Origin: a virus
Taxonomy: Duplodnaviria > Heunggongvirae > Uroviricota > Caudoviricetes
Length of the DNA: 7,395 nucleotides
Strand: one strand, 5' to 3'
IMG/VR virus record: IMGVR_UViG_2563366829_000015
Every line of letters begins with the position of its first letter. Positions within the stretch are counted from its first letter, which is position 1. Below the pieces are notes generated by a model. That model did not search any database, was not told the DNA's origin, and saw only the letters and a list, made by a program, of their open reading frames with translations. Below are positions 1,422 to 7,395 of this stretch, in pieces. The translations under genes were made by a program, and so were the position numbers.

Positions 1422-3893
1422 TTAAAAATCAGCCTGATTTGGGATCAGTTTTTGCCAGATAGCTGAAACGTATTTTGCCTGGTAACGGGCGTCATCAAGT
1501 GCATTATGGCGCTCACCTTCGAATGGAATAGCCGTTCTGGCATCGAAGTCTATGGCTTTCCCCAGCTCAACGATTGTGCGTACATCGCGATCGTTGTAGT
1601 AACGCCACGGGCAGGGGATCCCCTGCCGTTCGTATGAACGGCGCAAAATCGTGTTGTCGAAGTTGGCTCCATTTCCCCAAACCTGAACAAAAAATTCACC
1701 GGAGTTTTCGTCGATAAATTCCCGCAATTGTAACAGTGCATCATCTAACGGGATTTCATCGGTCATAATGGCAGATTGCGCTTCGCGTGATTGCTTAAGC
1801 CACCATTTAATGGTGTCCCGATCAATGACCCCGCCAGCAGTTTCCAGATCGATAGTCTTACTAAATTCCGGTCCCATATCTCCGGTTTGCGGATCGAAAA
1901 ATATTGCACCTATTGAGATGATCGGGGCATCAGGATTTTTTCCCATGGTTTCAAGGTCGATCATTAGATGGTCACACGTCCTGCTGGTGGATGTGATTTC
2001 TTGATGACCGTTCACCTTAATTGAGTGATCTGCCGTCTCGCCAGTTTCATTATCGCTATCGTGATGCTGATTGCCGCCAGTGTTCTCCTTGTGTGGATGT
2101 TCAGCGCCTTCCATTTCCTCCGGATCATCTTCCTGAACTTCAGGCTGATACTCTTCATCGAATGTTTCCTGGTATGTTGCGTCGCCCATTACCGCGCCAC
2201 AATCAGGGCAGTTGCCGCCGCCGGTCTGACCGCAGGCGGTGCAGACTTTTTCCACTTCCTGTTGCGCCACTGATTCAGGCTGTTTCGTTTCTGGCTCGTT
2301 TTGTAACGCATTTGGGCTGTTTTGTTCCGCTTTCTGGTCGTTCTGTTCCGTTTCTTGCTGGTTCTGGTTCACAGAATCGCGGGTCTGGTTCCCCTTAACC
2401 CATTTCGGATCATTCGGGTCGCTAATCCCTTCAACAAATTCACCACGTGATACTGCAAGCAGTTCATCGGCGTCAGGCTGGCTGATATTGGCTGCCTGCA
2501 TAATTTTGTTTACTTCGTCAGCGGTAACTTTTACTGACCCTGGTTGTGCGGTCGTGTCAGATGCACCAGTATTTTGTTGTGAACCTGAGTATGTACCGTT
2601 TTTGCGGGCGAAATATTCTTCTTTCGTGATTTCAGTAGCCCCAGCAGACAGCGCCTTATCCAGACCAGAAAGTTTGTTTGCGCGACCGTATTTTTCGCCA
2701 TCCTTGTCGGTGAAGAGGAAGTAGAACGGCCCCTCACGTTCTACAGATGGTTCGACTTCCACTTTGCATTCGGTTTTTTCGTTGTCCGGAATTGCCGTTT
2801 CCACTGCATCAGTTTCTGGTACTGGCGACGAGAGAGTATCAGTTGCGCTCTGATTTGTTCCTTCATCTTCAAACACGCCCTTTGTAGTCAGGTATTCAGT
2901 AATGTATTTGTTCAGTGCCACAGGGTCTTTGTGAATGTCGATCGGACGTTCACGGACAAGGCCAAAAATAGTCTGGCGGTCGTAGCGAAGGGCATCAGGC
3001 TGTTTGCGCATTGATGCCGAGATACGCTTCCAGTCTTCGCGGTCGTTGTCGATAACTTCATTTTTTGCCCAGCGATGGATGCTGCCGTCAATGTTTCCGG
3101 CATCCACATCACCAGGCCAGAGAGCGTAGGCCAGTTCGTCATCCAGTGTTTTCCATGTCTGCTTGTATTCGCGATGAATGGCAGCAATGACCGGGTTGAT
3201 TTTTCCTGTTGAATTTTCAGTGTGCTGTTGATTGGCTCTGGCGCGGGCGAGATCAACAACAGACGTGTATTTTCCGGCTTCCTTGCGTTCACCTTCGCGA
3301 CGTTTTTTCCAGATGCGCATCTCTGCCTGAATTTCGGGCCATTTGGCACCAGGCTTACATTTATGCTTAACCCACCCGATGGCATGCAGCTTAAGCTCCG
3401 GATACATGGCGTTAACTTCTGGCATTTTCATCAACGCTTCAACGATATGTCCGTCGAATGTTGCCATGTCTTCCTGCAACAGTTCCTGCGCGCTAATCAC
3501 CATATCAACGGTGATGTTTTCACATGTGTCGAACTTAACCATGACAGCGTTCTGTACTTCAGGGGCCAGCTTGTCAAAAGTGACGTTCATCGGATCTGAT
3601 TCAGTCTCAACCGGGACAAAGGAAGCAGACGCCTCATCCCAGCGGTTTTCCTGCATATATTCAGCATCCCAGGAATCTAGGGCAGGGCGGGGTATACCGG
3701 GTTTATCCTCGCAGACAAGAAATTTATAAGCGCAGTCCTGAGCAGCCGGATAATGTTCCAGGAATTGCCAGTGAAATTTTGCGCGGGCGCGACGTTCATC
3801 ACCGGCTTCAATGGCAGTGGCTACAGCGACTGCACCTTCTTCCTTTATTGCCTGTTCGTCCGGAATGGCGGCGCAAATAAAGACTTTACTCAT
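1422..3893 (-). CDS. Large multidomain prophage exonuclease, 823 aa: N-terminal region of unknown fold, Q/N/E-rich linker, CxxC-x7-CxxC zinc ribbon, acidic linker, C-terminal DnaQ-like DEDDh 3'-5' exonuclease domain
   Basis: ATG at 3891-3893 (minus) with a GAGGT SD about 9 nt upstream. The C-terminal ~184 aa (nt ~1425-1976) carry the three DEDDh motifs: Exo I MIDLET, Exo II GNGANFD, Exo III HNALDDARYQAKY. The zinc ribbon CTACGQTGGGNCPDCG is at nt 2202-2243. The position, directly upstream of xis-int, is where lambdoid prophages carry exo/recE-type genes. Whether the N-terminal ~500 aa relate to the RecE (exonuclease VIII) N-terminal region cannot be decided without a search. Confidence 0.88.
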   Translation of the reverse strand: MSKVFICAAIPDEQAIKEEGAVAVATAIEAGDERRARAKFHWQFLEHYPAAQDCAYKFLVCEDKPGIPRPALDSWDAEYMQENRWDEASASFVPVETESDPMNVTFDKLAPEVQNAVMVKFDTCENITVDMVISAQELLQEDMATFDGHIVEALMKMPEVNAMYPELKLHAIGWVKHKCKPGAKWPEIQAEMRIWKKRREGERKEAGKYTSVVDLARARANQQHTENSTGKINPVIAAIHREYKQTWKTLDDELAYALWPGDVDAGNIDGSIHRWAKNEVIDNDREDWKRISASMRKQPDALRYDRQTIFGLVRERPIDIHKDPVALNKYITEYLTTKGVFEDEGTNQSATDTLSSPVPETDAVETAIPDNEKTECKVEVEPSVEREGPFYFLFTDKDGEKYGRANKLSGLDKALSAGATEITKEEYFARKNGTYSGSQQNTGASDTTAQPGSVKVTADEVNKIMQAANISQPDADELLAVSRGEFVEGISDPNDPKWVKGNQTRDSVNQNQQETEQNDQKAEQNSPNALQNEPETKQPESVAQQEVEKVCTACGQTGGGNCPDCGAVMGDATYQETFDEEYQPEVQEDDPEEMEGAEHPHKENTGGNQHHDSDNETGETADHSIKVNGHQEITSTSRTCDHLMIDLETMGKNPDAPIISIGAIFFDPQTGDMGPEFSKTIDLETAGGVIDRDTIKWWLKQSREAQSAIMTDEIPLDDALLQLREFIDENSGEFFVQVWGNGANFDNTILRRSYERQGIPCPWRYYNDRDVRTIVELGKAIDFDARTAIPFEGERHNALDDARYQAKYVSAIWQKLIPNQADF

Positions 3894-3985
3894 TTTGTTT
3901 TACCTCATTACAGATTTAAGGGTGAACAAATCCCTGCCATTGCTGGCATATAAGAATGAAACCGGATATTTATTACGGAACTGTT

Positions 3986-4177
3986 TTAAAGACCTGCCGG
4001 GATTTCGTTATTATCCTGGTGAATGACTTTATCGACCGGGTAACAGTTACCGGGAATTTTCTGTTCGGTTGCTGCAGTCACACACTCCTGCATTGTCCTG
4101 TGAACACTGACTGCAATATCAACTGGCTCTCCGGAAACAAGAAAAACTGTCAGAACAAGTGCAAATGCTGTATTCAT
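3986..4177 (-). CDS. ydfD: YdfD-like small membrane-anchored lysis protein, 63 aa
   Basis: ATG at 4175-4177 (minus) overlaps the dicB stop (ATGA, translational coupling), with an AAGGA SD about 8 nt upstream. N-terminal hydrophobic helix (NTAFALVLTVFLVSG) followed by a soluble Cys-containing tail. Size, position directly downstream of dicB and sequence agree with my recollection of Qin-prophage YdfD. The ORF track's longer 81-aa version (start 4231) has a poorly spaced SD. Confidence 0.72.
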   Translation of the reverse strand: MNTAFALVLTVFLVSGEPVDIAVSVHRTMQECVTAATEQKIPGNCYPVDKVIHQDNNEIPAGL

Positions 4178-4362
4178 TGTGCACATCCTTTTTGTATCGG
4201 ACGTAAACGGGCCAGCATTGAAAGAATGCATATTTTATTTAATAACTCCCGTTCGTGTTTTCTCTTGTTAATGGCATCTTCAGTAAATACAGGGTTACTG
4301 ATAGTGACACCAATTTCAAAACAACCTTCAGACGTATTAACGTTTGGTAATAACGTTTCCAT
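4174..4362 (-). CDS. dicB: DicB cell-division inhibitor (MinC-dependent FtsZ-ring inhibitor), 62 aa
   Basis: ATG at 4360-4362 (minus) with a GAGGA SD 7 nt upstream. The sequence METLLPNVNTSEGCFEIGVTISNPVFTEDAINKRKHERELLNKIC...KGCAQ matches my recollection of E. coli DicB almost residue for residue, and the gene lies directly downstream of DicF as in the dicBF operon. Confidence 0.88.
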   Translation of the reverse strand: METLLPNVNTSEGCFEIGVTISNPVFTEDAINKRKHERELLNKICILSMLARLRPIQKGCAQ

Positions 4363-4545
4363 TATCGCGTCCTCAACAATGAATTTTGTGATGCAGTGCC
4401 TGGTGCCTCCAGGTGACGTTAACCAGTTAACAATTAACGCCGGGTTAGTTGATGCTCGTTACGCCCGTAAAATACCGCCTTACTGCTTTAACTGTTCCGC
4501 GTGCGCATAGCCGCATTCACCGCATCACAAAATTCACTTTAAAAA

Positions 4546-4598
4546 GGGCGGCAGAGCAGTCACGGAGTAAAACTGATACCGCCAAATGTCACCAGAAA
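4546..4598 (-). ncRNA. dicF: DicF small regulatory RNA (Hfq-dependent sRNA processed from the dicB operon transcript; represses ftsZ and other mRNAs)
   Basis: The minus strand reads 5'-TTTCTGGTGACATTTGGCGGTATCAGTTTTACTCCGTGACTGCTCTGCCGCCC-3' followed by T5 (plus 4541-4545 AAAAA). This matches the 53-nt DicF RNA as I recall it, with possibly one substitution, and it sits ~180 nt upstream of dicB. The exact ends are taken from memory of the K-12 RNA and could be off by a few nt. Confidence 0.8.
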
Positions 4599-4933
4599 AT
4601 TGATAACAGAGGGCGTTGTAGCGGGGTTGTCACTTAAGCGTATGGTCAACCTGACAACCCGGTGCATTTTCTGGAGCAATGGAGGAAACCCCAGCCATAC
4701 TTACCGCCGCGCCATTTCGCGGAGTGCCACAACCGGAAGCGCACGGTCGAACTAAATTTAACGACACCGTACAGAGAGACCAATTTCGCCGTGCGCTTTC
4801 GCGTTATGCCCTGACTTTTCAGGGACATATCCTTTCAGTAAACTGTCAGTGCCGGATGCTCACCCGTGTCCGGCGCACGCACTCCACCTGACCAGTGGAG
4901 AACTCCTTAATTACCAACCCTCAGGAGGGTGAA

Positions 4934-5212
4934 ATGGATAAAAAGCAAATTGAGGCCCTGCAATCTATTATTGAAGAACAAGATGAAGCTATCAGGATTC
5001 TTTCATATCGCACTGATATGATACTAAATATGCTTTCTGCATTAACGGCTGCGCTTGGTGGTACAAAAACAAACGTATACCGCGAAGTTGTTATTCAACA
5101 GATAGATAAATTTGAAAAAACCATACCAGGTATTAATGCTCATCTTGCAGAACAAGAGAAAGACCATGCTCTTATGGCAATTTCTTCAGTAGCTCTCCCG
5201 AAAGTTGAGTAG
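4934..5212 (+). CDS. Hypothetical protein, 92 aa, acidic/helical, opposite-strand insert within the early-left operon
   Basis: ATG at 4934 is preceded by a perfect AGGAGG SD (4922-4927, 6-nt spacer). It is the only plus-strand gene among the minus-strand neighbours. No recognisable catalytic or transmembrane motifs. The ORF track's upstream GTG start (4895) lacks an SD. The local sequence is visibly more AT-rich than the flanks. Confidence 0.6.
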   Translation: MDKKQIEALQSIIEEQDEAIRILSYRTDMILNMLSALTAALGGTKTNVYREVVIQQIDKFEKTIPGINAHLAEQEKDHALMAISSVALPKVE

Positions 5213-5573
5213 TTTTAATTGTTGTTTTGAAATAATCACTGCTTTCACATTTGAGTGATTTCATGGCAATCCAAATGCGGGCCTCTGTGCCTGCATTTGG
5301 TTCCAGTTGCTGTAGACGTTTTGCGTCTTCCAAAAGTAAGGCGATAATGTGTTTCAGCTTCTCATCATTTGCTTGATTCTTGTTTTCAGGCGAATTCTGT
5401 CCGCCGAATAGGCGCTTCTCTTCATACAGACCTATAAAGGCACGACGCACGTTACCGGATATAGTATCGATGGTTTCCTTTTCTACAGTACTCAGGTCAA
5501 GAGTCGCCAGTTGAGAGCGAACCACATTCGCTGCCATTTCCTGGAATGGCATTGGTAAATCTTTAAATTCCAT
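5172..5573 (-). CDS. Hypothetical protein, 133 aa, soluble, co-directional with the early-left operon
   Basis: ATG at 5571-5573 (minus) with a GAGG SD 6 nt upstream, 22 nt after the stop of the upstream 72-aa ORF. No recognised motifs. The 3' end overlaps the 3' end of the convergent 92-aa ORF by 41 nt (5172-5212). Confidence 0.65.
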   Translation of the reverse strand: MEFKDLPMPFQEMAANVVRSQLATLDLSTVEKETIDTISGNVRRAFIGLYEEKRLFGGQNSPENKNQANDEKLKHIIALLLEDAKRLQQLEPNAGTEARIWIAMKSLKCESSDYFKTTIKTTQLSGELLKKLP

Positions 5574-5595
5574 TATTAGCCTCGTTGGTTAGCTA

Positions 5596-5814
5596 TTAAC
5601 GTGGGTATGTAACCATTCTGGCAATGCTTAATGCCGCTGCTTTTTCCAGCCTGGTGATATCCTGCTCCAGAGCGGACAGATTTTCAGCCTGCTTAGTCCT
5701 GGCTTCATTGGCCCATTTCAGATCCTGCACTGCATTAATTTTCTGGCGCATCCACTCATAAAGTTCATCATCGGTATAGTCTGGCGCGATGATGACGGGT
5801 TCTCGTTTCTGCAT
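5596..5814 (-). CDS. ydfC: YdfC-like small protein, 72 aa (third ORF of the dicB-type operon)
   Basis: ATG at 5812-5814 (minus) with a GAGGA SD 6 nt upstream. Size and position (third small ORF, upstream of dicF/dicB) match YdfC of the Qin dicB operon. The symbol is assigned from size and synteny; I do not recognise the sequence from memory. Confidence 0.65.
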   Translation of the reverse strand: MQKREPVIIAPDYTDDELYEWMRQKINAVQDLKWANEARTKQAENLSALEQDITRLEKAAALSIARMVTYPR

Positions 5815-5843
5815 ACTGATTCCTCGCGGTGCTGTTTCGCTTA

Positions 5844-5972
5844 TCAGCCGTTAGATTTTCCCGAACTGGAAAGCGCCTGTTTAAATTCACTGAAGCTGAG
5901 AGCTTCTTCGCCTTCGGCAAGACCATCGAAGTATTCTTCGTAAGCCTTTTCCATGATTGTGTCGAAATCCAT
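5844..5972 (-). CDS. ydfB: YdfB-like small protein, 42 aa
   Basis: Found by manual translation (too short for the ORF track): MDFDTIMEKAYEEYFDGLAEGEEALSFSEFKQALSSSGKSNG. ATG at 5970-5972 (minus) lies 1 nt after the stop of the upstream 51-aa ORF (TGAtATG), suggesting coupling. The 42-aa size and second position in the operon match Qin YdfB / Rac YdaG-type proteins. Confidence 0.6.
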   Translation of the reverse strand: MDFDTIMEKAYEEYFDGLAEGEEALSFSEFKQALSSSGKSNG

Positions 5973-5973
5973 A

Positions 5974-6129
5974 TCACTCACCTGAGTTTCTTTCCAGCCA
6001 GCGACGGGCACCATTTTCGGTTTTAAACGTTTTGCTTTTGGTATACGTCATCGCGGTGAATGTGCCGTCCTGGTTGGGAAACACGCCGTACACCAGAGAT
6101 TCGTTGTTGCCAAGCTCGATAGTATCCAT
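5974..6129 (-). CDS. ydfA: YdfA-like small protein, 51 aa (first ORF of the early-left operon)
   Basis: Found by manual translation: MDTIELGNNESLVYGVFPNQDGTFTAMTYTKSKTFKTENGARRWLERNSGE. ATG at 6127-6129 (minus) with a GAGG SD 5 nt upstream. The 51-aa size and first position downstream of the repressor-proximal promoter match Qin YdfA / Rac YdaF. Confidence 0.6.
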   Translation of the reverse strand: MDTIELGNNESLVYGVFPNQDGTFTAMTYTKSKTFKTENGARRWLERNSGE

Positions 6130-6200
6130 GCTGACCTCATTTCCCCTTAACGCCGGGTGGCGGAACTAAAACCTACAGCGCCGTGCTGTTCTTGATAGAA

Positions 6201-6382: not shown

Positions 6383-6844
6383 CTACTGGTTACGTTTCTT
6401 TAGTGCCAGCATGTTCTCGAAGGCTTCCTCGTAGAGCTTGTTTAGTCCACGTAGCTGGTTAAGGAGTTTGGCTTTTTCTGACGCAGGTAGAATCTCGAAG
6501 AGGTTAAGTAACTCTGCCTGTTCTTCATTGACCAGCCTCCATCCTTTGCCTGAAAAGTTATCATCATAAGTATCTGATGATCTTACATAATTCATTAAGT
6601 CTTTAAGGTCTTCTCGAATGTCCTCTGGTTTTACCTTTAACAGAGCCGCAAATTTTAGCGCAGCGTCGGTATTTACCGGTATCTTGCCGTTCAGATACTG
6701 GCTAACGGTGCCTTGAGATTCGAATCCCAACAACTCAGCCGCCAGCTCTTGAGTCAGCTTCAGCTCTTTTTTTCTTGCATTCCATGCGGCTTTTAAATTC
6801 TTGCTCGCTTCTGGAGTTGCAATCACTTCGCGTGTTTTTTTCAT
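6383..6844 (-). CDS. Prophage immunity repressor, DicA/RacR-type HTH (XRE-family) protein, 153 aa
   Basis: ATG at 6842-6844 (minus). N-terminal HTH_XRE-like segment (LKLTQELAAELLGFESQGTVSQYLNG); C-terminal helical region (AELLNLFEILPASEKAKLL) with no S24 peptidase Ser/Lys autocleavage motif, as in DicA/RacR-type repressors rather than lambda CI. It is divergent from a cro-like gene and co-directional with the operon it would repress. No SD is visible upstream, so the mRNA may be leaderless. Confidence 0.85.
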   Translation of the reverse strand: MKKTREVIATPEASKNLKAAWNARKKELKLTQELAAELLGFESQGTVSQYLNGKIPVNTDAALKFAALLKVKPEDIREDLKDLMNYVRSSDTYDDNFSGKGWRLVNEEQAELLNLFEILPASEKAKLLNQLRGLNKLYEEAFENMLALKKRNQ

Positions 6845-6951: not shown

Positions 6952-7188
6952 ATGAACTTAAGAGACTATTTAAAAGAGAAACATATCACCCAGCTACAGT
7001 TTGGGAAGCTAACGGGTTTATCTCAGGTGCATGTAAGTCGAGTGCTGGGGGGCTATGAAAGATTCAGCCCTGAAAAAGCATTACGTGTTGCTGAAGTAAC
7101 GAATTTCGAGGTTACACCTCATGAACTCCGGCCTGATATTTACCCGAATCCAACCGACGGCTTACCTGTTGGATTCAAGGCTAACTGA
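6952..7188 (+). CDS. Cro/DicC/YdaS-like HTH regulator, 78 aa, 3' end abutting or interrupted by an IS element
   Basis: ATG at 6952 with a GAAGG SD 6 nt upstream; the ORF track's TTG at 6946 is less likely. HTH-like segment ITQLQFGKLTGLSQVHVSRVL. It is divergent from the repressor. The stop codon TGA at 7186-7188 coincides with the first three bases of the IS terminal inverted repeat. Confidence 0.75.
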   Translation: MNLRDYLKEKHITQLQFGKLTGLSQVHVSRVLGGYERFSPEKALRVAEVTNFEVTPHELRPDIYPNPTDGLPVGFKAN

Positions 7189-7395
7189 ACCGCCCCGGGT
7201 TTCCTGGAGAGTGTTTTATCTGTGAACTCAGGCTGCCAGATCATCGTTTCCGATGGAAGCATAATAAGCTTTTTCTGCTTCTGCCGGAGGAGTATGGCCC
7301 AGCCTTTCCAGCAATCGTCGATTGTTATACCAGTCCACCCACGTGAGTGTGGCCAGTTCCACTTCTGCACGGTTTTTCCAGCTCTTACGGTGTAT
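7186..7395 (-). mobile_element. IS3-family insertion sequence (IS629/IS1203-like), partial: right terminal inverted repeat plus 3' end of the transposase gene; continues beyond the window
   Basis: Plus strand from 7186 reads TGAACCGCCCCGGGTTTCCTGGAGAGTG, which matches my recollection of the terminal inverted repeat of the IS629/IS1203/IS3411 group (IS3-family TG...CA termini). Directly inward is a transposase C-terminus on the minus strand. Confidence 0.75.
7228..7395 (-). CDS. IS3-family transposase (OrfB / rve integrase-core) C-terminal fragment, 5'-truncated by the window edge
   Basis: Manual minus-strand translation gives ...SWKNRAEVELATLTWVDWYNNRRLLERLGHTPPAEAEKAYYASIGNDDLAA* with the stop at 7228-7230. 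This is the conserved C-terminal end of IS3-family transposases. The frame has no Met in the window, so it is absent from the ORF track; the track's 7140-7370 ORF is a different frame. Confidence 0.8.
   Translation of the reverse strand: MHRKSWKNRAEVELATLTWVDWYNNRRLLERLGHTPPAEAEKAYYASIGNDDLAA

What the first reader, a model, noticed from the sequence alone, without database searches (positions are those of the whole stretch)
4934..5573. Convergent, 3'-overlapping pair of uncharacterised ORFs (92 aa plus strand, 133 aa minus strand) inserted between ydfC and DicF
Both ORFs have convincing ribosome-binding sites (AGGAGG for orf92, GAGG for orf133) and lie tail-to-tail with a 41-nt overlap (5172-5212) in a block that is visibly more AT-rich than its flanks. 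orf92 is the only plus-strand gene in ~5 kb of minus-strand early-left operon, and it is antisense to any transcript that must cross it to reach DicF/dicB. In Rac- and lambda-type prophages the equivalent slot holds sieB-type superinfection-exclusion genes on their own promoters. Neither protein resembles SieB (no transmembrane segments) or any family I can recognise. This makes the pair a candidate lysogen-expressed exclusion, abortive-infection or toxin-antitoxin-like module; alternatively, convergent transcription from orf92 could gate DicF/DicB production.
Basis: partly seen in the sequence, partly recalled or inferred. Interest (0 to 1): 0.72.

Follow-up and report, generated by a model that had tools for sequence, protein, structure and literature searches.

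The report
Swappable small-gene cassette in dicB prophages
The two overlapping ORFs are real genes but not a matched pair: orf92 is a self-contained accessory gene, one of several small genes that swap in and out of one prophage slot behind a shared RNA leader, and orf133 is an ordinary early phage gene whose tail runs into it.

Summary
orf92 (4934-5212, +) and orf133 (5172-5573, -) exist, have Shine-Dalgarno sites, overlap by 41 nt and lie in a 656-nt, lower-GC block (4920-5575). K-12 Qin lacks this block cleanly between ydfC and DicF (4546-4597, -).

orf92 is a genuine gene (dN/dS 0.08-0.25) of a very small orphan family of helical proteins. It also occurs without any orf133-like partner, in two cases with its own intrinsic terminator.

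It carries a conserved plus-strand leader (4851-4933) with three covarying helices, one of which sequesters the SD. In 119 IMG/VR prophage loci, this leader precedes about 10 other small ORF types (57-94 aa), or nothing, as in K-12 Qin.

orf133 is a fusion of a common N-terminal module and a YmfJ-family core (e14 YmfJ, 75% over 40 aa). Its predicted-disordered tail is read off orf92's antisense strand.

A 3'-3' overlap is usual in this slot, and K-12 e14 ymfI/ymfJ is a documented convergent example. The toxin-antitoxin pair idea is not supported. An accessory gene ("moron") expressed while the prophage is repressed is the best reading. Its biochemical function remains unknown.

The parts
4920..5575 (.). 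656-nt block that is present or absent between prophages. It holds the orf92 RBS and ORF and all of orf133 up to its ATG. It is absent from K-12 Qin.
   Evidence: BLASTN of the window against K-12 Qin: 3127-4919 and 5576-6167 map to adjacent K-12 bases. GC is 0.405 against 0.488/0.474 in the flanks.
4816..4844 (+). Predicted sigma-70 promoter of the cassette: -35 TTTTCA (4816-4821), 17-nt spacer, -10 TAAACT (4839-4844). The inferred start is near G4851.
   Evidence: Read from the sequence. It scores 8/12, below the threshold of the consensus scan. A -10-like hexamer sits at the same distance from helix 1 in loci whose upstream DNA is otherwise unrelated: TAAGCT in L002, TAAAAT in L007, TATTAT in L012 and L017. 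No TSS was measured, so this is an inference.
4851..4933 (+). Conserved structured 5' leader. Helix 1 is 4851-4874, helix 2 is 4882-4900, and helix 3 pairs anti-SD CUCCU (4903-4907) with SD AGGAG (4923-4927).
   Evidence: The plus-strand RNA folds at -38.4 kcal/mol (z -4.07); the minus strand gives z -0.70. In 11 sequences, 87.4% of cells are paired against about 41% in slid controls, and 6 pairs change on both sides. The U.G/G.U pairs fit the plus strand only. No Rfam family matches.
4934..5212 (+). orf92: a 92-aa soluble protein, predicted to be three helices, of an orphan family.
   Evidence: dN/dS is 0.08-0.25. There are 22 clusters among 5.8 billion proteins and 12 representatives among 1.84 billion. 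The AF2 model has pLDDT 69.6 with helices 3-41, 47-61 and 69-85. No fold match reaches E<0.2 in PDB or BFVD.
5172..5212 (.). 41-nt 3'-3' overlap of orf92 and orf133.
   Evidence: The same 41-nt overlap is seen in L002, L007 and L012 and in 50 IMG/VR loci.
5271..5300 (+). 12-bp hairpin (CCAAAUGCGGGC-CUCUGU-GCCUGCAUUUGG) on the orf92 strand, 59-88 nt after its stop. It is the inferred 3' end of the orf92 transcript. On the other strand it encodes PNAGTEARIW of orf133.
   Evidence: It is conserved from E. coli to an Aeromonas phage, with frozen third-codon positions. The variants give G.U on this strand and A.C on the other. Folding energy is -16.8 to -23.7 on this strand against -12.9 to -19.0 kcal/mol on the other. 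In K-12 e14, a published Rho-termination region on the ymfI strand peaks at 1,202,011, which is the 3' foot of the same hairpin (PMC7815308 supplementary file 2).
5409..5573 (-). orf133 N-terminal module (aa 1-55), a helical hairpin.
   Evidence: It is shared with many 104-212-aa prophage proteins that have other C-termini. It is present in 894 of 5426 E. coli genomes. pLDDT is about 85-89.
5253..5366 (-). orf133 YmfJ-family core (aa 70-107): LKHIIALLLEDAKRLQQLEPNAGTEARIWIA.
   Evidence: BLASTP against K-12 e14 YmfJ gives 75% identity over 40 aa, E 3e-20. The core is widespread in Enterobacterales as 44-119-aa proteins with hypervariable tails.
5172..5252 (-). orf133 tail (aa 108-133 plus stop). 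Its last 13 codons and the stop lie on the antisense strand of orf92's 3' end.
   Evidence: Most of aa 108-133 has pLDDT below 50 and no secondary structure is predicted there. The tail varies with whichever cargo gene lies downstream. The orf92 C-terminus SSVALPKxE is conserved even where there is no partner.
4546..4597 (-). DicF sRNA gene, downstream in the early-left direction.
   Evidence: Rfam RF00039, 77 bits, E 3e-16.
5596..5814 (-). ydfC, the early-left gene just upstream of orf133.
   Evidence: PGAP annotation of the identical prophage; 96% identical to K-12.

Best explanation
orf92 is an autonomous accessory gene (a 'moron'). It sits in a cassette slot of dicB/DicF-type lambdoid prophages, on the strand opposite the early-left (PL-like) operon.

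**Shown**
- It is a protein-coding gene under purifying selection.
- It is present or absent as a clean block.
- It travels with a conserved, covarying plus-strand leader whose third helix pairs the Shine-Dalgarno sequence with an upstream anti-SD.
- In other prophages the same leader precedes about ten other small ORF types, or nothing.
- orf133 is not its partner. It is an early-left operon protein: a common N-module fused to a YmfJ-family core, with a tail read off whatever lies downstream.

**Inferred**
- A weak sigma-70 promoter (4816-4844) starts transcription at about 4851, so that helix 1 forms a 5'-terminal stabilising stem-loop.
- Translation is limited by SD sequestration.
- The transcript ends at the hairpin 5271-5300, probably after Rho-dependent termination, as measured at the homologous hairpin of e14 ymfI/ymfJ.
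- The convergent 3' overlap makes the two units mutually exclusive (an 'excludon'). orf92 would be made while the repressor keeps the early-left promoter off. It would be silenced by collision and antisense pairing once the prophage is induced.
- The cassette is probably exchanged by homologous recombination between the conserved leader on one side and the conserved N-module or YmfJ core on the other.

**Guess**
Orf92 is a small soluble helical protein. It probably binds another protein and acts in phage-phage or phage-host conflict, as superinfection exclusion or an anti-defence function. The reasons are that it sits in a diversifying slot and is expected to be expressed from the repressed prophage.
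For: - **Clean indel against K-12 Qin**.
- **Frequency in E. coli.** orf92 is in 127 of 5426 complete genomes, while parts of the surrounding region are in 3507.
- **Purifying selection** on orf92.
- **orf92 occurs without orf133.** Homologues have no orf133-like partner in L005, L013, L015 and L016. L015 and L016 carry intrinsic terminators 32 nt after the stop.
- **Leader structure.** It shows covariation and a plus-strand-specific fold. It is kept even in front of homologues only 33-44% identical in protein, including one in a P2-like prophage.
- **Census of 119 IMG/VR loci carrying leader helix 1.** About 42 are empty, 19 have a 124-aa leftward gene abutting helix 2, and the rest carry orf77, orf64, orf92, orf91a/b, orf69, orf73, orf76, orf94, orf57 or orf80.
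- **3'-3' overlaps** with the leftward gene range from 0 to 44 nt in 10 of the 11 cargo types.
- **No cognate pairing.** The same leftward C-region pairs with different cargos.
- **orf133 modularity**.
- **The K-12 e14 ymfI/ymfJ relative.** The genes overlap by 63 nt. The pair is listed as a convergent excludon (PMC12288877). There is a Rho-termination region at the hairpin foot on the ymfI strand, with read coverage in uninduced cells (PMC7815308). ymfJ mRNA is induced late in the SOS response and YmfJ protein is detected, whereas ymfI changes little (PMC11002266).
Against: - No transcription start, transcript end or protein product has been measured for orf92 itself.
- The promoter matches the consensus only 8/12 and fell below the scan threshold.
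- The hairpin at 5271-5300 has no U-tract. Its role as a 3' end is by analogy to e14, which has a different cargo gene and lacks leader helices 1-2.
- In E. coli, orf92 is almost always found with orf133/137 (50 of 56 IMG/VR loci). A functional link within that lineage is therefore not excluded.
- There is no homology, fold match or defence-database hit that indicates a function.
- The leader survives in about 42 of 119 loci with no ORF behind it. It may therefore have a role of its own.
Confidence: 0.55

Rival explanations
1. The two ORFs form a cognate two-gene module, either toxin-antitoxin-like or colicin/immunity-like. The variable C-terminal part of the induced leftward protein would be harmful. 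The oppositely transcribed, constitutively expressed small protein would neutralise it in the lysogen.
For: - The leftward proteins have a constant N-module and variable C-regions that change together with the cargo cassette.
- The convergent arrangement resembles that of immunity genes of pore-forming colicins (own knowledge).
- In E. coli, orf92 is nearly always next to orf133/137.
- A weak sub-threshold RelB-like hit for orf92 (E 0.014, 15.6 bits against a cut-off of 50).
- One alternative cargo (orf94/YmfI type) just reaches the Pfam GhoS threshold (21.2 against 21 bits).
Against: - orf92 homologues stand alone in four contexts, two of them with their own terminators.
- The divergent family member orf91a/b pairs with an unrelated C-region.
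- The YmfJ core pairs with orf92, orf57, orf94, orf76 and YmfI. The EKYFL-type C-region pairs with orf91a/b, with orf73, or with nothing.
- The overlapping tail is predicted to be disordered.
- There are no toxin or antitoxin family hits.
- The genes are convergent rather than co-transcribed.
Confidence: 0.1
2. The main function is regulatory and lies at the RNA or transcription level. The plus-strand promoter and leader would fire against the early-left operon. They would then dampen leaky read-through into DicF/dicB by collision, or by antisense pairing with ydfC/orf133 mRNA. The ORF behind the leader would be secondary cargo.
For: - The leader is retained at about 93% identity in K-12 Qin, and in about 42 of 119 IMG/VR loci, with no ORF behind it.
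- Every transcript from the early-left promoter must cross it to reach DicF (4546-4597) and dicB.
- A terminator-like site on the plus strand at 5619-5646 would give a short antisense RNA in empty slots.
- Convergent excludons are documented for ymfI-ymfJ and sieB-ydaF in K-12 (PMC12288877).
Against: - No plus-strand 3' end was found near the Qin leader in the K-12 Term-seq and Rho tables searched, and the two Cappable-seq supplements searched had no hit near that coordinate.
- orf92 is under clear protein-level selection and keeps its SD and anti-SD, so the protein matters.
- In K-12, Rho already terminates operon-sense transcription inside ydfC (PMC7815308).
- A DicF-leader duplex is no better than shuffled controls.
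- The leader in empty slots may simply be a relic.
Confidence: 0.2
3. orf92 is a spurious ORF on the antisense strand of a non-coding spacer or of orf133.
For: The family is tiny and has no known domain. 5 of 56 IMG/VR copies are frameshifted.
Against: - Most substitutions against Salmonella homologues are at third codon positions; dN/dS is 0.08-0.25 at dS 0.7-0.9.
- Length and C-terminal motif are kept in homologues of 33-44% identity in unrelated contexts.
- A strong SD sits at the correct spacing and is conserved.
- Only 41 of the 279 nt overlap orf133.
Confidence: 0.03

Closest known systems
ymfI / ymfJ of the E. coli K-12 e14 cryptic prophage (both uncharacterised)
   Same: - The architecture is the same: a small gene on the opposite strand (ymfI) converges on and overlaps (63 nt) the first early-left gene (ymfJ), next to the repressor.
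- YmfJ is homologous to the orf133 core: 75% over 40 aa.
- The same 12-bp hairpin lies inside the core.
- The pair is listed as a convergent excludon, and a Rho-termination region lies at the hairpin foot.
   Different: - YmfI was not detectably similar to Orf92; it is weakly linked to the orf94/phiES15 cargo type.
- e14 lacks leader helices 1-2.
- YmfJ has no N-module.
- e14 has no ydfABC, DicF or dicB context.
Morons of lambdoid phages: accessory genes with their own promoter and terminator, expressed from the repressed prophage (concept of Juhala, Hendrix and colleagues; own knowledge)
   Same: - Present or absent between otherwise collinear genomes.
- Different base composition.
- Opposite orientation.
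- Own promoter-like site, and in distant homologues an own terminator.
   Different: Here many unrelated small ORFs share one conserved structured leader and one slot. The 3' boundary lies inside a neighbouring gene. I am not aware that this has been described for classical morons.
SieB / Rex-type lysogen-expressed exclusion genes near the immunity region
   Same: Position in the early-left/immunity region, and an expected independent promoter. sieB-ydaF is also a convergent excludon in K-12.
   Different: No homology and no membrane segments. Orf92 is a soluble helical protein. No exclusion phenotype has been tested.
Anti-CRISPR or defence 'hotspot' loci, where diverse small genes sit at a fixed position between conserved flanks (own knowledge)
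   Same: One fixed slot, conserved flanks (the leader, and the N-module or YmfJ core), and about 10 interchangeable small ORF types of 57-94 aa.
   Different: No conserved regulator gene such as aca. No hit to any known defence family for the cargos and leftward proteins scanned against PADLOC. Orientation is against the early operon. Function is untested.

Membership tests
Moron (autonomous accessory gene of a temperate phage) | Present in some genomes and absent from otherwise collinear relatives | tested here: met
   Clean 656-nt indel against K-12 Qin. orf92 is in 127 of 5426 E. coli genomes, while flanking sequence is in 3507.
Moron (autonomous accessory gene of a temperate phage) | Own promoter upstream and own terminator downstream | tested here: inconclusive
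   The promoter is only predicted (8/12 match, missed by the scan), though a -10-like box is conserved in position. Intrinsic terminators follow the homologues in L015 and L016, with a terminator-like site in L012. In the window there is only a hairpin without a U-tract.
Moron (autonomous accessory gene of a temperate phage) | Base composition differs from that of the neighbours | tested here: met
   GC 0.405 against 0.488/0.474.
Moron (autonomous accessory gene of a temperate phage) | Expressed from the repressed prophage | not testable with these tools
   Only indirect evidence. In the e14 relative, the ymfI strand has read coverage and a Rho-dependent 3' end in uninduced K-12 (PMC7815308).
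Type II toxin-antitoxin module | Two adjacent, co-transcribed genes that consistently co-occur | tested here: not met
   The genes are convergent. orf92 occurs without orf133 in L005, L013, L015 and L016. The orf133 core occurs with other cargo genes.
Type II toxin-antitoxin module | Homology of either protein to a known toxin or antitoxin family | tested here: not met
   No Pfam or PADLOC hit. The NCBIfam RelB-like hit scores 15.6 bits against a cut-off of 50.
SieB-type superinfection exclusion | Sequence homology to SieB and membrane-spanning segments | tested here: not met
   No Pfam hit. The models are all-helical and look soluble. The longest hydrophobic run in Orf92 is about 15 residues (and reading of the sequence).
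Convergent excludon (overlapping convergent transcription units with mutually exclusive expression) | Convergent genes whose transcripts overlap | tested here: inconclusive
   The ORFs overlap by 41 nt, so their transcripts must overlap if both are made. Transcript ends could not be measured. The homologous e14 pair ymfI-ymfJ is listed as an excludon.
YmfJ family (for the C-terminal half of orf133) | Sequence similarity to E. coli K-12 YmfJ over the conserved N-terminal core | tested here: met
   BLASTP gives 75% identity over 40 aa, E 3e-20. The shared core appears in 106 cluster hits.
Polymorphic toxin / colicin-immunity arrangement | The variable C-terminal domain strictly co-varies with a cognate adjacent immunity gene | tested here: not met
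   The same C-region is found with several different cargo genes, or with none, and the same cargo family is found with different C-regions.
AroQ chorismate mutase (considered for Orf92) | Match to the CM_2 profile or to solved chorismate mutases | tested here: not met
   Only a weak NCBIfam hit (E 0.054) and Foldseek hits at E above 2. No CM_2 hit in 7 family members at E<=10, and no chorismate mutase in a PDB profile search.
DicF sRNA (neighbouring feature) | Match to Rfam RF00039 above the gathering score | tested here: met
   77 bits against a gathering score of 48, at 4546-4597 (-).

The most novel reading that the evidence does not exclude
The leader-plus-slot is a dedicated expression platform whose contents are exchanged by recombination. 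It would be found in the dicB-type prophages common in E. coli and would carry a diversifying set of small effector proteins. Orf92 and its divergent relatives (orf91a/b) would be one effector family among about eight. The effectors would be translated under control of an SD-sequestering leader and switched off by convergent early-left transcription on induction. They would act in superinfection exclusion or anti-defence, much as anti-CRISPR loci or defence hotspots do in other phages. The hairpin embedded in the YmfJ core would serve as the shared 3' end and as the recombination anchor.
Probability: 0.3. Interest if true: 0.7.

Novelty: new member of a known kind. Interest (0 to 1): 0.45.

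Why it matters
**Ordinary in kind.** The finding is an uncharacterised moron next to an uncharacterised early phage gene.

**Useful context.**
- One conserved, structured leader drives about ten interchangeable small ORFs in prophages of many E. coli strains, including EPEC E2348/69 and O157.
- K-12 carries an empty copy of the slot in Qin and a related convergent pair in e14.
- This gives a compact, testable set of candidate lysogen-expressed small proteins. It also gives a natural cassette system for asking what prophages express while repressed.

**Annotation points.**
- The '133-aa hypothetical protein' is a YmfJ-family fusion.
- Its tail, and the 3' overlap, should not be read as evidence of a gene pair.
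- A highly conserved peptide motif (PNAGTEARIW) coincides with a conserved RNA hairpin on the opposite strand.

Tried and rejected
**Searches that found nothing**
- Pfam, NCBIfam, PADLOC and PHROGs for both proteins gave nothing informative.
- Foldseek with both AF2 models found only generic helical bundles at E above 0.2: both models against PDB, and the orf92 model also against BFVD. The afdb50 library was unavailable.
- tblastn of orf92 against 50,697 phage records found no match, and against plasmids found one E. coli record.
- No paper mentions the two WP accessions.
- K-12 5'-end and 3'-end data for a plus-strand transcript at the Qin leader: three supplements held no entry near 1,649,130 (v3) or 1,647,154 (v2). 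The Thomason dRNA-seq paper is not held.

**Ideas tested and rejected**
- Orf92 as a chorismate-mutase-like protein. This was prompted by an LRxKISxLD-type first helix and a weak NCBIfam hit. Profile searches rejected it.
- DicF pairing with the orf92 leader. The duplex energy of -31.0 kcal/mol is equalled by 52% of shuffled DicF sequences.
- The 119-aa plus-strand ORFs upstream of orf92 homologues in L005 and L013 as a conserved partner. They show no similarity.
- A LexA box near the promoter. None was seen on reading the sequence.

**Technical failures and limits**
- The search for related loci with the diverse alignment A5 failed because no stretch was conserved enough. With A3 it returned only near-identical E. 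coli loci.
- The genome-contig scan for the leader returned only 5 loci.
Full report
**1. What is in the window**

The window is the left arm of a lambdoid prophage. In strain 118UI, which is 100% identical over 4800-5700, the prophage lies next to ompW.

On the minus strand, from left to right, it carries:
- int (1-1131)
- xis
- an 823-aa exonuclease
- a DUF1482/ydfD-like gene
- dicB (4174-4362)
- DicF (4546-4597; Rfam 77 bits)
- orf133 (5172-5573)
- ydfC (5596-5814)
- ydfB
- a DUF1391/ydfA gene
- an HTH repressor (6383-6844)

A Cro/YdaS-like gene follows on the plus strand. orf92 (4934-5212) is the only plus-strand gene annotated in the early-left region.

**2.

The lower GC is also confirmed: 0.405 against 0.488 and 0.474 in the flanks.

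Against K-12 Qin, window 3127-4919 and 5576-6167 align to adjacent K-12 bases. So 4920-5575 is a clean 656-nt indel. It starts 14 nt before the orf92 ATG and ends 2 nt beyond the orf133 ATG.

**3. orf92 is a real gene of a tiny orphan family**

- **Family size.** It has 22 clusters among 5.8 billion proteins and 12 representatives among 1.84 billion. Members come from E. coli, Salmonella and a few divergent metagenomic or genomic sequences.
- **Selection.** Against Salmonella homologues of 72-74% identity, most substitutions are at third codon positions. dN/dS is 0.245, 0.170 and 0.077 at dS 0.7-0.9.
- **Fold.** The predicted fold is three helices with pLDDT 69.6.
- **Function searches.** There is no Pfam, NCBIfam, PADLOC, PDB-profile or Foldseek match that says anything about function.
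- **Distribution.** It is in 127 of 5426 complete E. coli genomes, all at 95% identity or more, including E2348/69 and CE10. It is in one plasmid record and in no deposited phage genome.

**4. orf92 does not need orf133**

Context of orf92 homologues in other loci:

| Locus | Context of the orf92 homologue |
|---|---|
| L002-L004, L007 (Salmonella) | Converges on a 71-aa ORF that matches only the C-terminal half of orf133; same 41-nt overlap |
| L005 | Directly next to the repressor, no leftward partner |
| L015, L016 | Converges on an S24 repressor; a good intrinsic terminator lies 32 nt after the stop |
| L013, L014 | Next to an integrase at the end of an island |
| L012 (P2-like prophage) | Overlaps a 214-aa HTH protein by 41 nt |

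The C-terminal motif of Orf92 (SSVALPKxE) is conserved in the partner-less homologues too. The leftward tail encoded on its antisense strand is therefore a passenger.

**5. orf133 is a mosaic early-left gene**

- **N-module (aa 1-55).** It is a confident helical hairpin. It heads many prophage proteins of 104-212 aa with unrelated C-regions. It is present in 894 of 5426 E. coli genomes.
- **Core (aa 70-107), LKHIIALLLEDAKRLQQLEPNAGTEARIWIA.** This is the N-terminal core of K-12 e14 YmfJ, with 75% identity over 40 aa and E 3e-20. It is widespread in Enterobacterales as 44-119-aa proteins with hypervariable tails.
- **Tail (aa 108-133).** It is predicted to be disordered.

**6. A conserved structured leader precedes orf92**

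- **Fold.** As plus-strand RNA, 4845-4945 folds at -38.4 kcal/mol (z -4.07). The complement gives z -0.70.
- **Helices.** Helix 1 is 4851-4874 and helix 2 is 4882-4900. Helix 3 pairs CUCCU (4903-4907) with the SD AGGAG (4923-4927).
- **Covariation.** In 11 sequences, including homologues only 33-44% identical in protein, 87.4% of cells are paired against about 41% in slid controls. Six pairs change on both sides. Helix 3 switches between CUCCU/AGGAG and CUCCA/UGGAG. Helix 1 holds U.G and G.U pairs that would be mismatches on the other strand.
- **Rfam.** It has no such family.
- **Promoter (inferred).** A -10-like hexamer sits 4-8 nt upstream of helix 1 even where the upstream DNA is unrelated. 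In the window it is TAAACT at 4839-4844, with TTTTCA 17 nt upstream. I infer a start near 4851, but nobody has measured it.

**7. The slot is a cassette site**

| Slot content behind the leader | Loci |
|---|---|
| Empty: leader joined directly to the ydfC flank, as in K-12 Qin | about 42 |
| 124-aa leftward gene abutting helix 2 | 19 |
| orf77 | 8 |
| orf64 | 8 |
| orf92 (one frameshifted) | 8 |
| orf69 | 6 |
| orf91a/b | 4 |
| orf73 | 4 |
| orf57 | 3 |
| orf94 (the phiES15/pAEv1818 type) | 3 |
| orf76 | 2 |
| orf80 | 1 |
| Leader with no long ORF behind it | 3 |
| Helix 1 in an unrelated context | 3 |
| Match too close to the contig end | 5 |

- orf91a/b is a divergent member of the orf92 family: hhalign 96% probability, E 2e-9, 27% identity.
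- orf73 and orf64 are unrelated to orf92.
- The leftward gene ends inside, or right at, the 3' end of the cargo ORF in 10 of the 11 types. Overlaps range from 0 to 44 nt.
- The same holds for phiES15 and Aeromonas phage pAEv1818, with a 30-nt overlap.
- It also holds for PPompW prophages, with a 23-nt overlap.

The 3'-3' overlap is therefore a property of the slot, not of this pair.

One C-region can sit beside several cargos. The YmfJ core is found with orf92, orf57, orf94, orf76 and YmfI. The EKYFL type is found with orf91a/b, with orf73, or with none. That argues against cognate pairing.

**8. A hairpin inside the YmfJ core**

The codons for PNAGTEARIW (window 5271-5300) form a 12-bp inverted repeat.

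- In an Aeromonas phage, the synonymous sites of the stem are unchanged, while the flanking codons carry many synonymous changes.
- The loop varies.
- The stem variants seen give G.U on the cargo strand and A.C on the coding strand.

In K-12 e14 the 3' foot of this hairpin on the ymfI strand is at 1,202,010-1,202,012. A published Rho-termination region has its best position at 1,202,011 (+). The reads were 68 upstream and 21 downstream without bicyclomycin, and 181 and 367 with it. The Rho score was 6.57 (PMC7815308, supplementary file 2).

By analogy, I infer that the orf92 transcript ends at about 5300.

**9. Support from the K-12 relative**

- ymfI-ymfJ is listed among the convergent excludons of K-12 (PMC12288877).
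- ymfJ mRNA rises late in the SOS response, up to log2 4.83, and YmfJ protein is detected. ymfI rises only to 1.98 (PMC11002266).

This fits a repressor-controlled leftward gene and a separately controlled cargo gene.

**10. Verdict**

The most likely picture is a moron-type transcription unit:
- promoter at 4816-4844;
- leader at 4851-4933;
- orf92;
- 3' hairpin at 5271-5300.

It is inserted against the early-left operon, inside a cassette slot bounded by conserved sequence.

The convergent overlap would make orf92 expression and early-left transcription mutually exclusive.

What Orf92 does is unknown. A role in phage-phage or phage-host conflict is a guess, based on its position and on the diversity of the slot.

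The toxin-antitoxin pair reading is unlikely (about 0.1). Gating of DicF/dicB by the leader promoter remains possible as an additional role (about 0.2).

In kind, this is a new member of a known class. The shared leader, the number of alternative cargos and the dual-use hairpin are the parts worth following up.

Noticed in passing
window 5271-5300 (also L202 5986-6011, L009, L010, L002, L007, L024): The conserved peptide motif PNAGTEARIW of the YmfJ family is encoded by a 12-bp inverted repeat. The synonymous sites of the stem are frozen from E. coli to an Aeromonas phage. The hairpin is better on the strand opposite the gene. In K-12 e14 a published Rho-termination peak sits at its 3' foot.
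   Followed up: partly
L008 (K-12 Qin) 2563-2696, equivalent to window 4786-4919; window 5619-5646: K-12 Qin keeps the cassette promoter region and leader helices 1-2 (93% identity) but has no ORF behind them. The leader is joined straight to the ydfC 3' flank. A weak plus-strand terminator-like site inside ydfC would give a short RNA antisense to ydfC. No published 5' or 3' end was found for it.
   Followed up: partly
L017 2339-3004 (-): In an enterobacterial prophage (in an assembly labelled Chryseobacterium), the same leader precedes a 32-aa ORF and then a 156-aa ORF with two apparent hydrophobic helices. These converge on an S24 repressor. There is no Pfam or PADLOC hit.
   Followed up: partly
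L122 and L010 3235-3522 (-), L009 3241-3522 (-), L202 5498-5839 (+): The orf94/phiES15-type cargo just reaches the Pfam GhoS (type V antitoxin endoribonuclease) threshold, 21.2 against 21 bits. It also weakly matches NCBIfam YmfI_phage. This links it to K-12 e14 YmfI.
   Followed up: partly
K-12 genome 1,648,855 (+), inside ydfC (equivalent to about window 5780): The published bicyclomycin data list a Rho-termination region internal to ydfC on the operon-sense strand (Rho score 3.98). In uninduced K-12, much dicB-operon transcription therefore stops before the slot and DicF.
   Followed up: no
window 7140-7370 (-): The right end of the window holds the C-terminal end of an IS3-family-like transposase ORF (…WVDWYNNRRLLERLGH…). 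It lies directly after the Cro/YdaS-like gene, which is 80 aa here. The collinear 118UI prophage has a 91-aa gene followed by ydaT. This copy of the prophage may be interrupted by an IS element.
   Followed up: no
window 1422-3893 (-): The 823-aa 'exonuclease' has its Rv2179c-like 3'-5' exoribonuclease domain only at residues 642-813. The first about 640 residues are acidic and low in complexity, include a Cys-rich stretch (CTACGQTGGGNCPDCG), and match no family.
   Followed up: no
window 4532-4585 against L002/L003 3720-3770: The Salmonella prophages that carry orf93 have an 81%-identical match to the 3' part of DicF just leftward of the cassette. It does not reach the Rfam DicF threshold.
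   Followed up: no
L027-L076 (IMG/VR), equivalent to window 5574-5585: In most E. coli copies the leftward ORF can start 4 codons earlier (MRLTMEFKDLP…, 137 aa). In the window only the 133-aa form is open.
   Followed up: no
window 4810-4825: A 6-bp hairpin, CCCTGA-CTTT-TCAGGG, overlaps the predicted -35 of the cassette promoter. In e14, a very abundant minus-strand 3' end (1,201,423) maps within the ymfI promoter region, next to a hairpin (CACC…GGTG). This could be the end of an early-left transcript.
   Followed up: no
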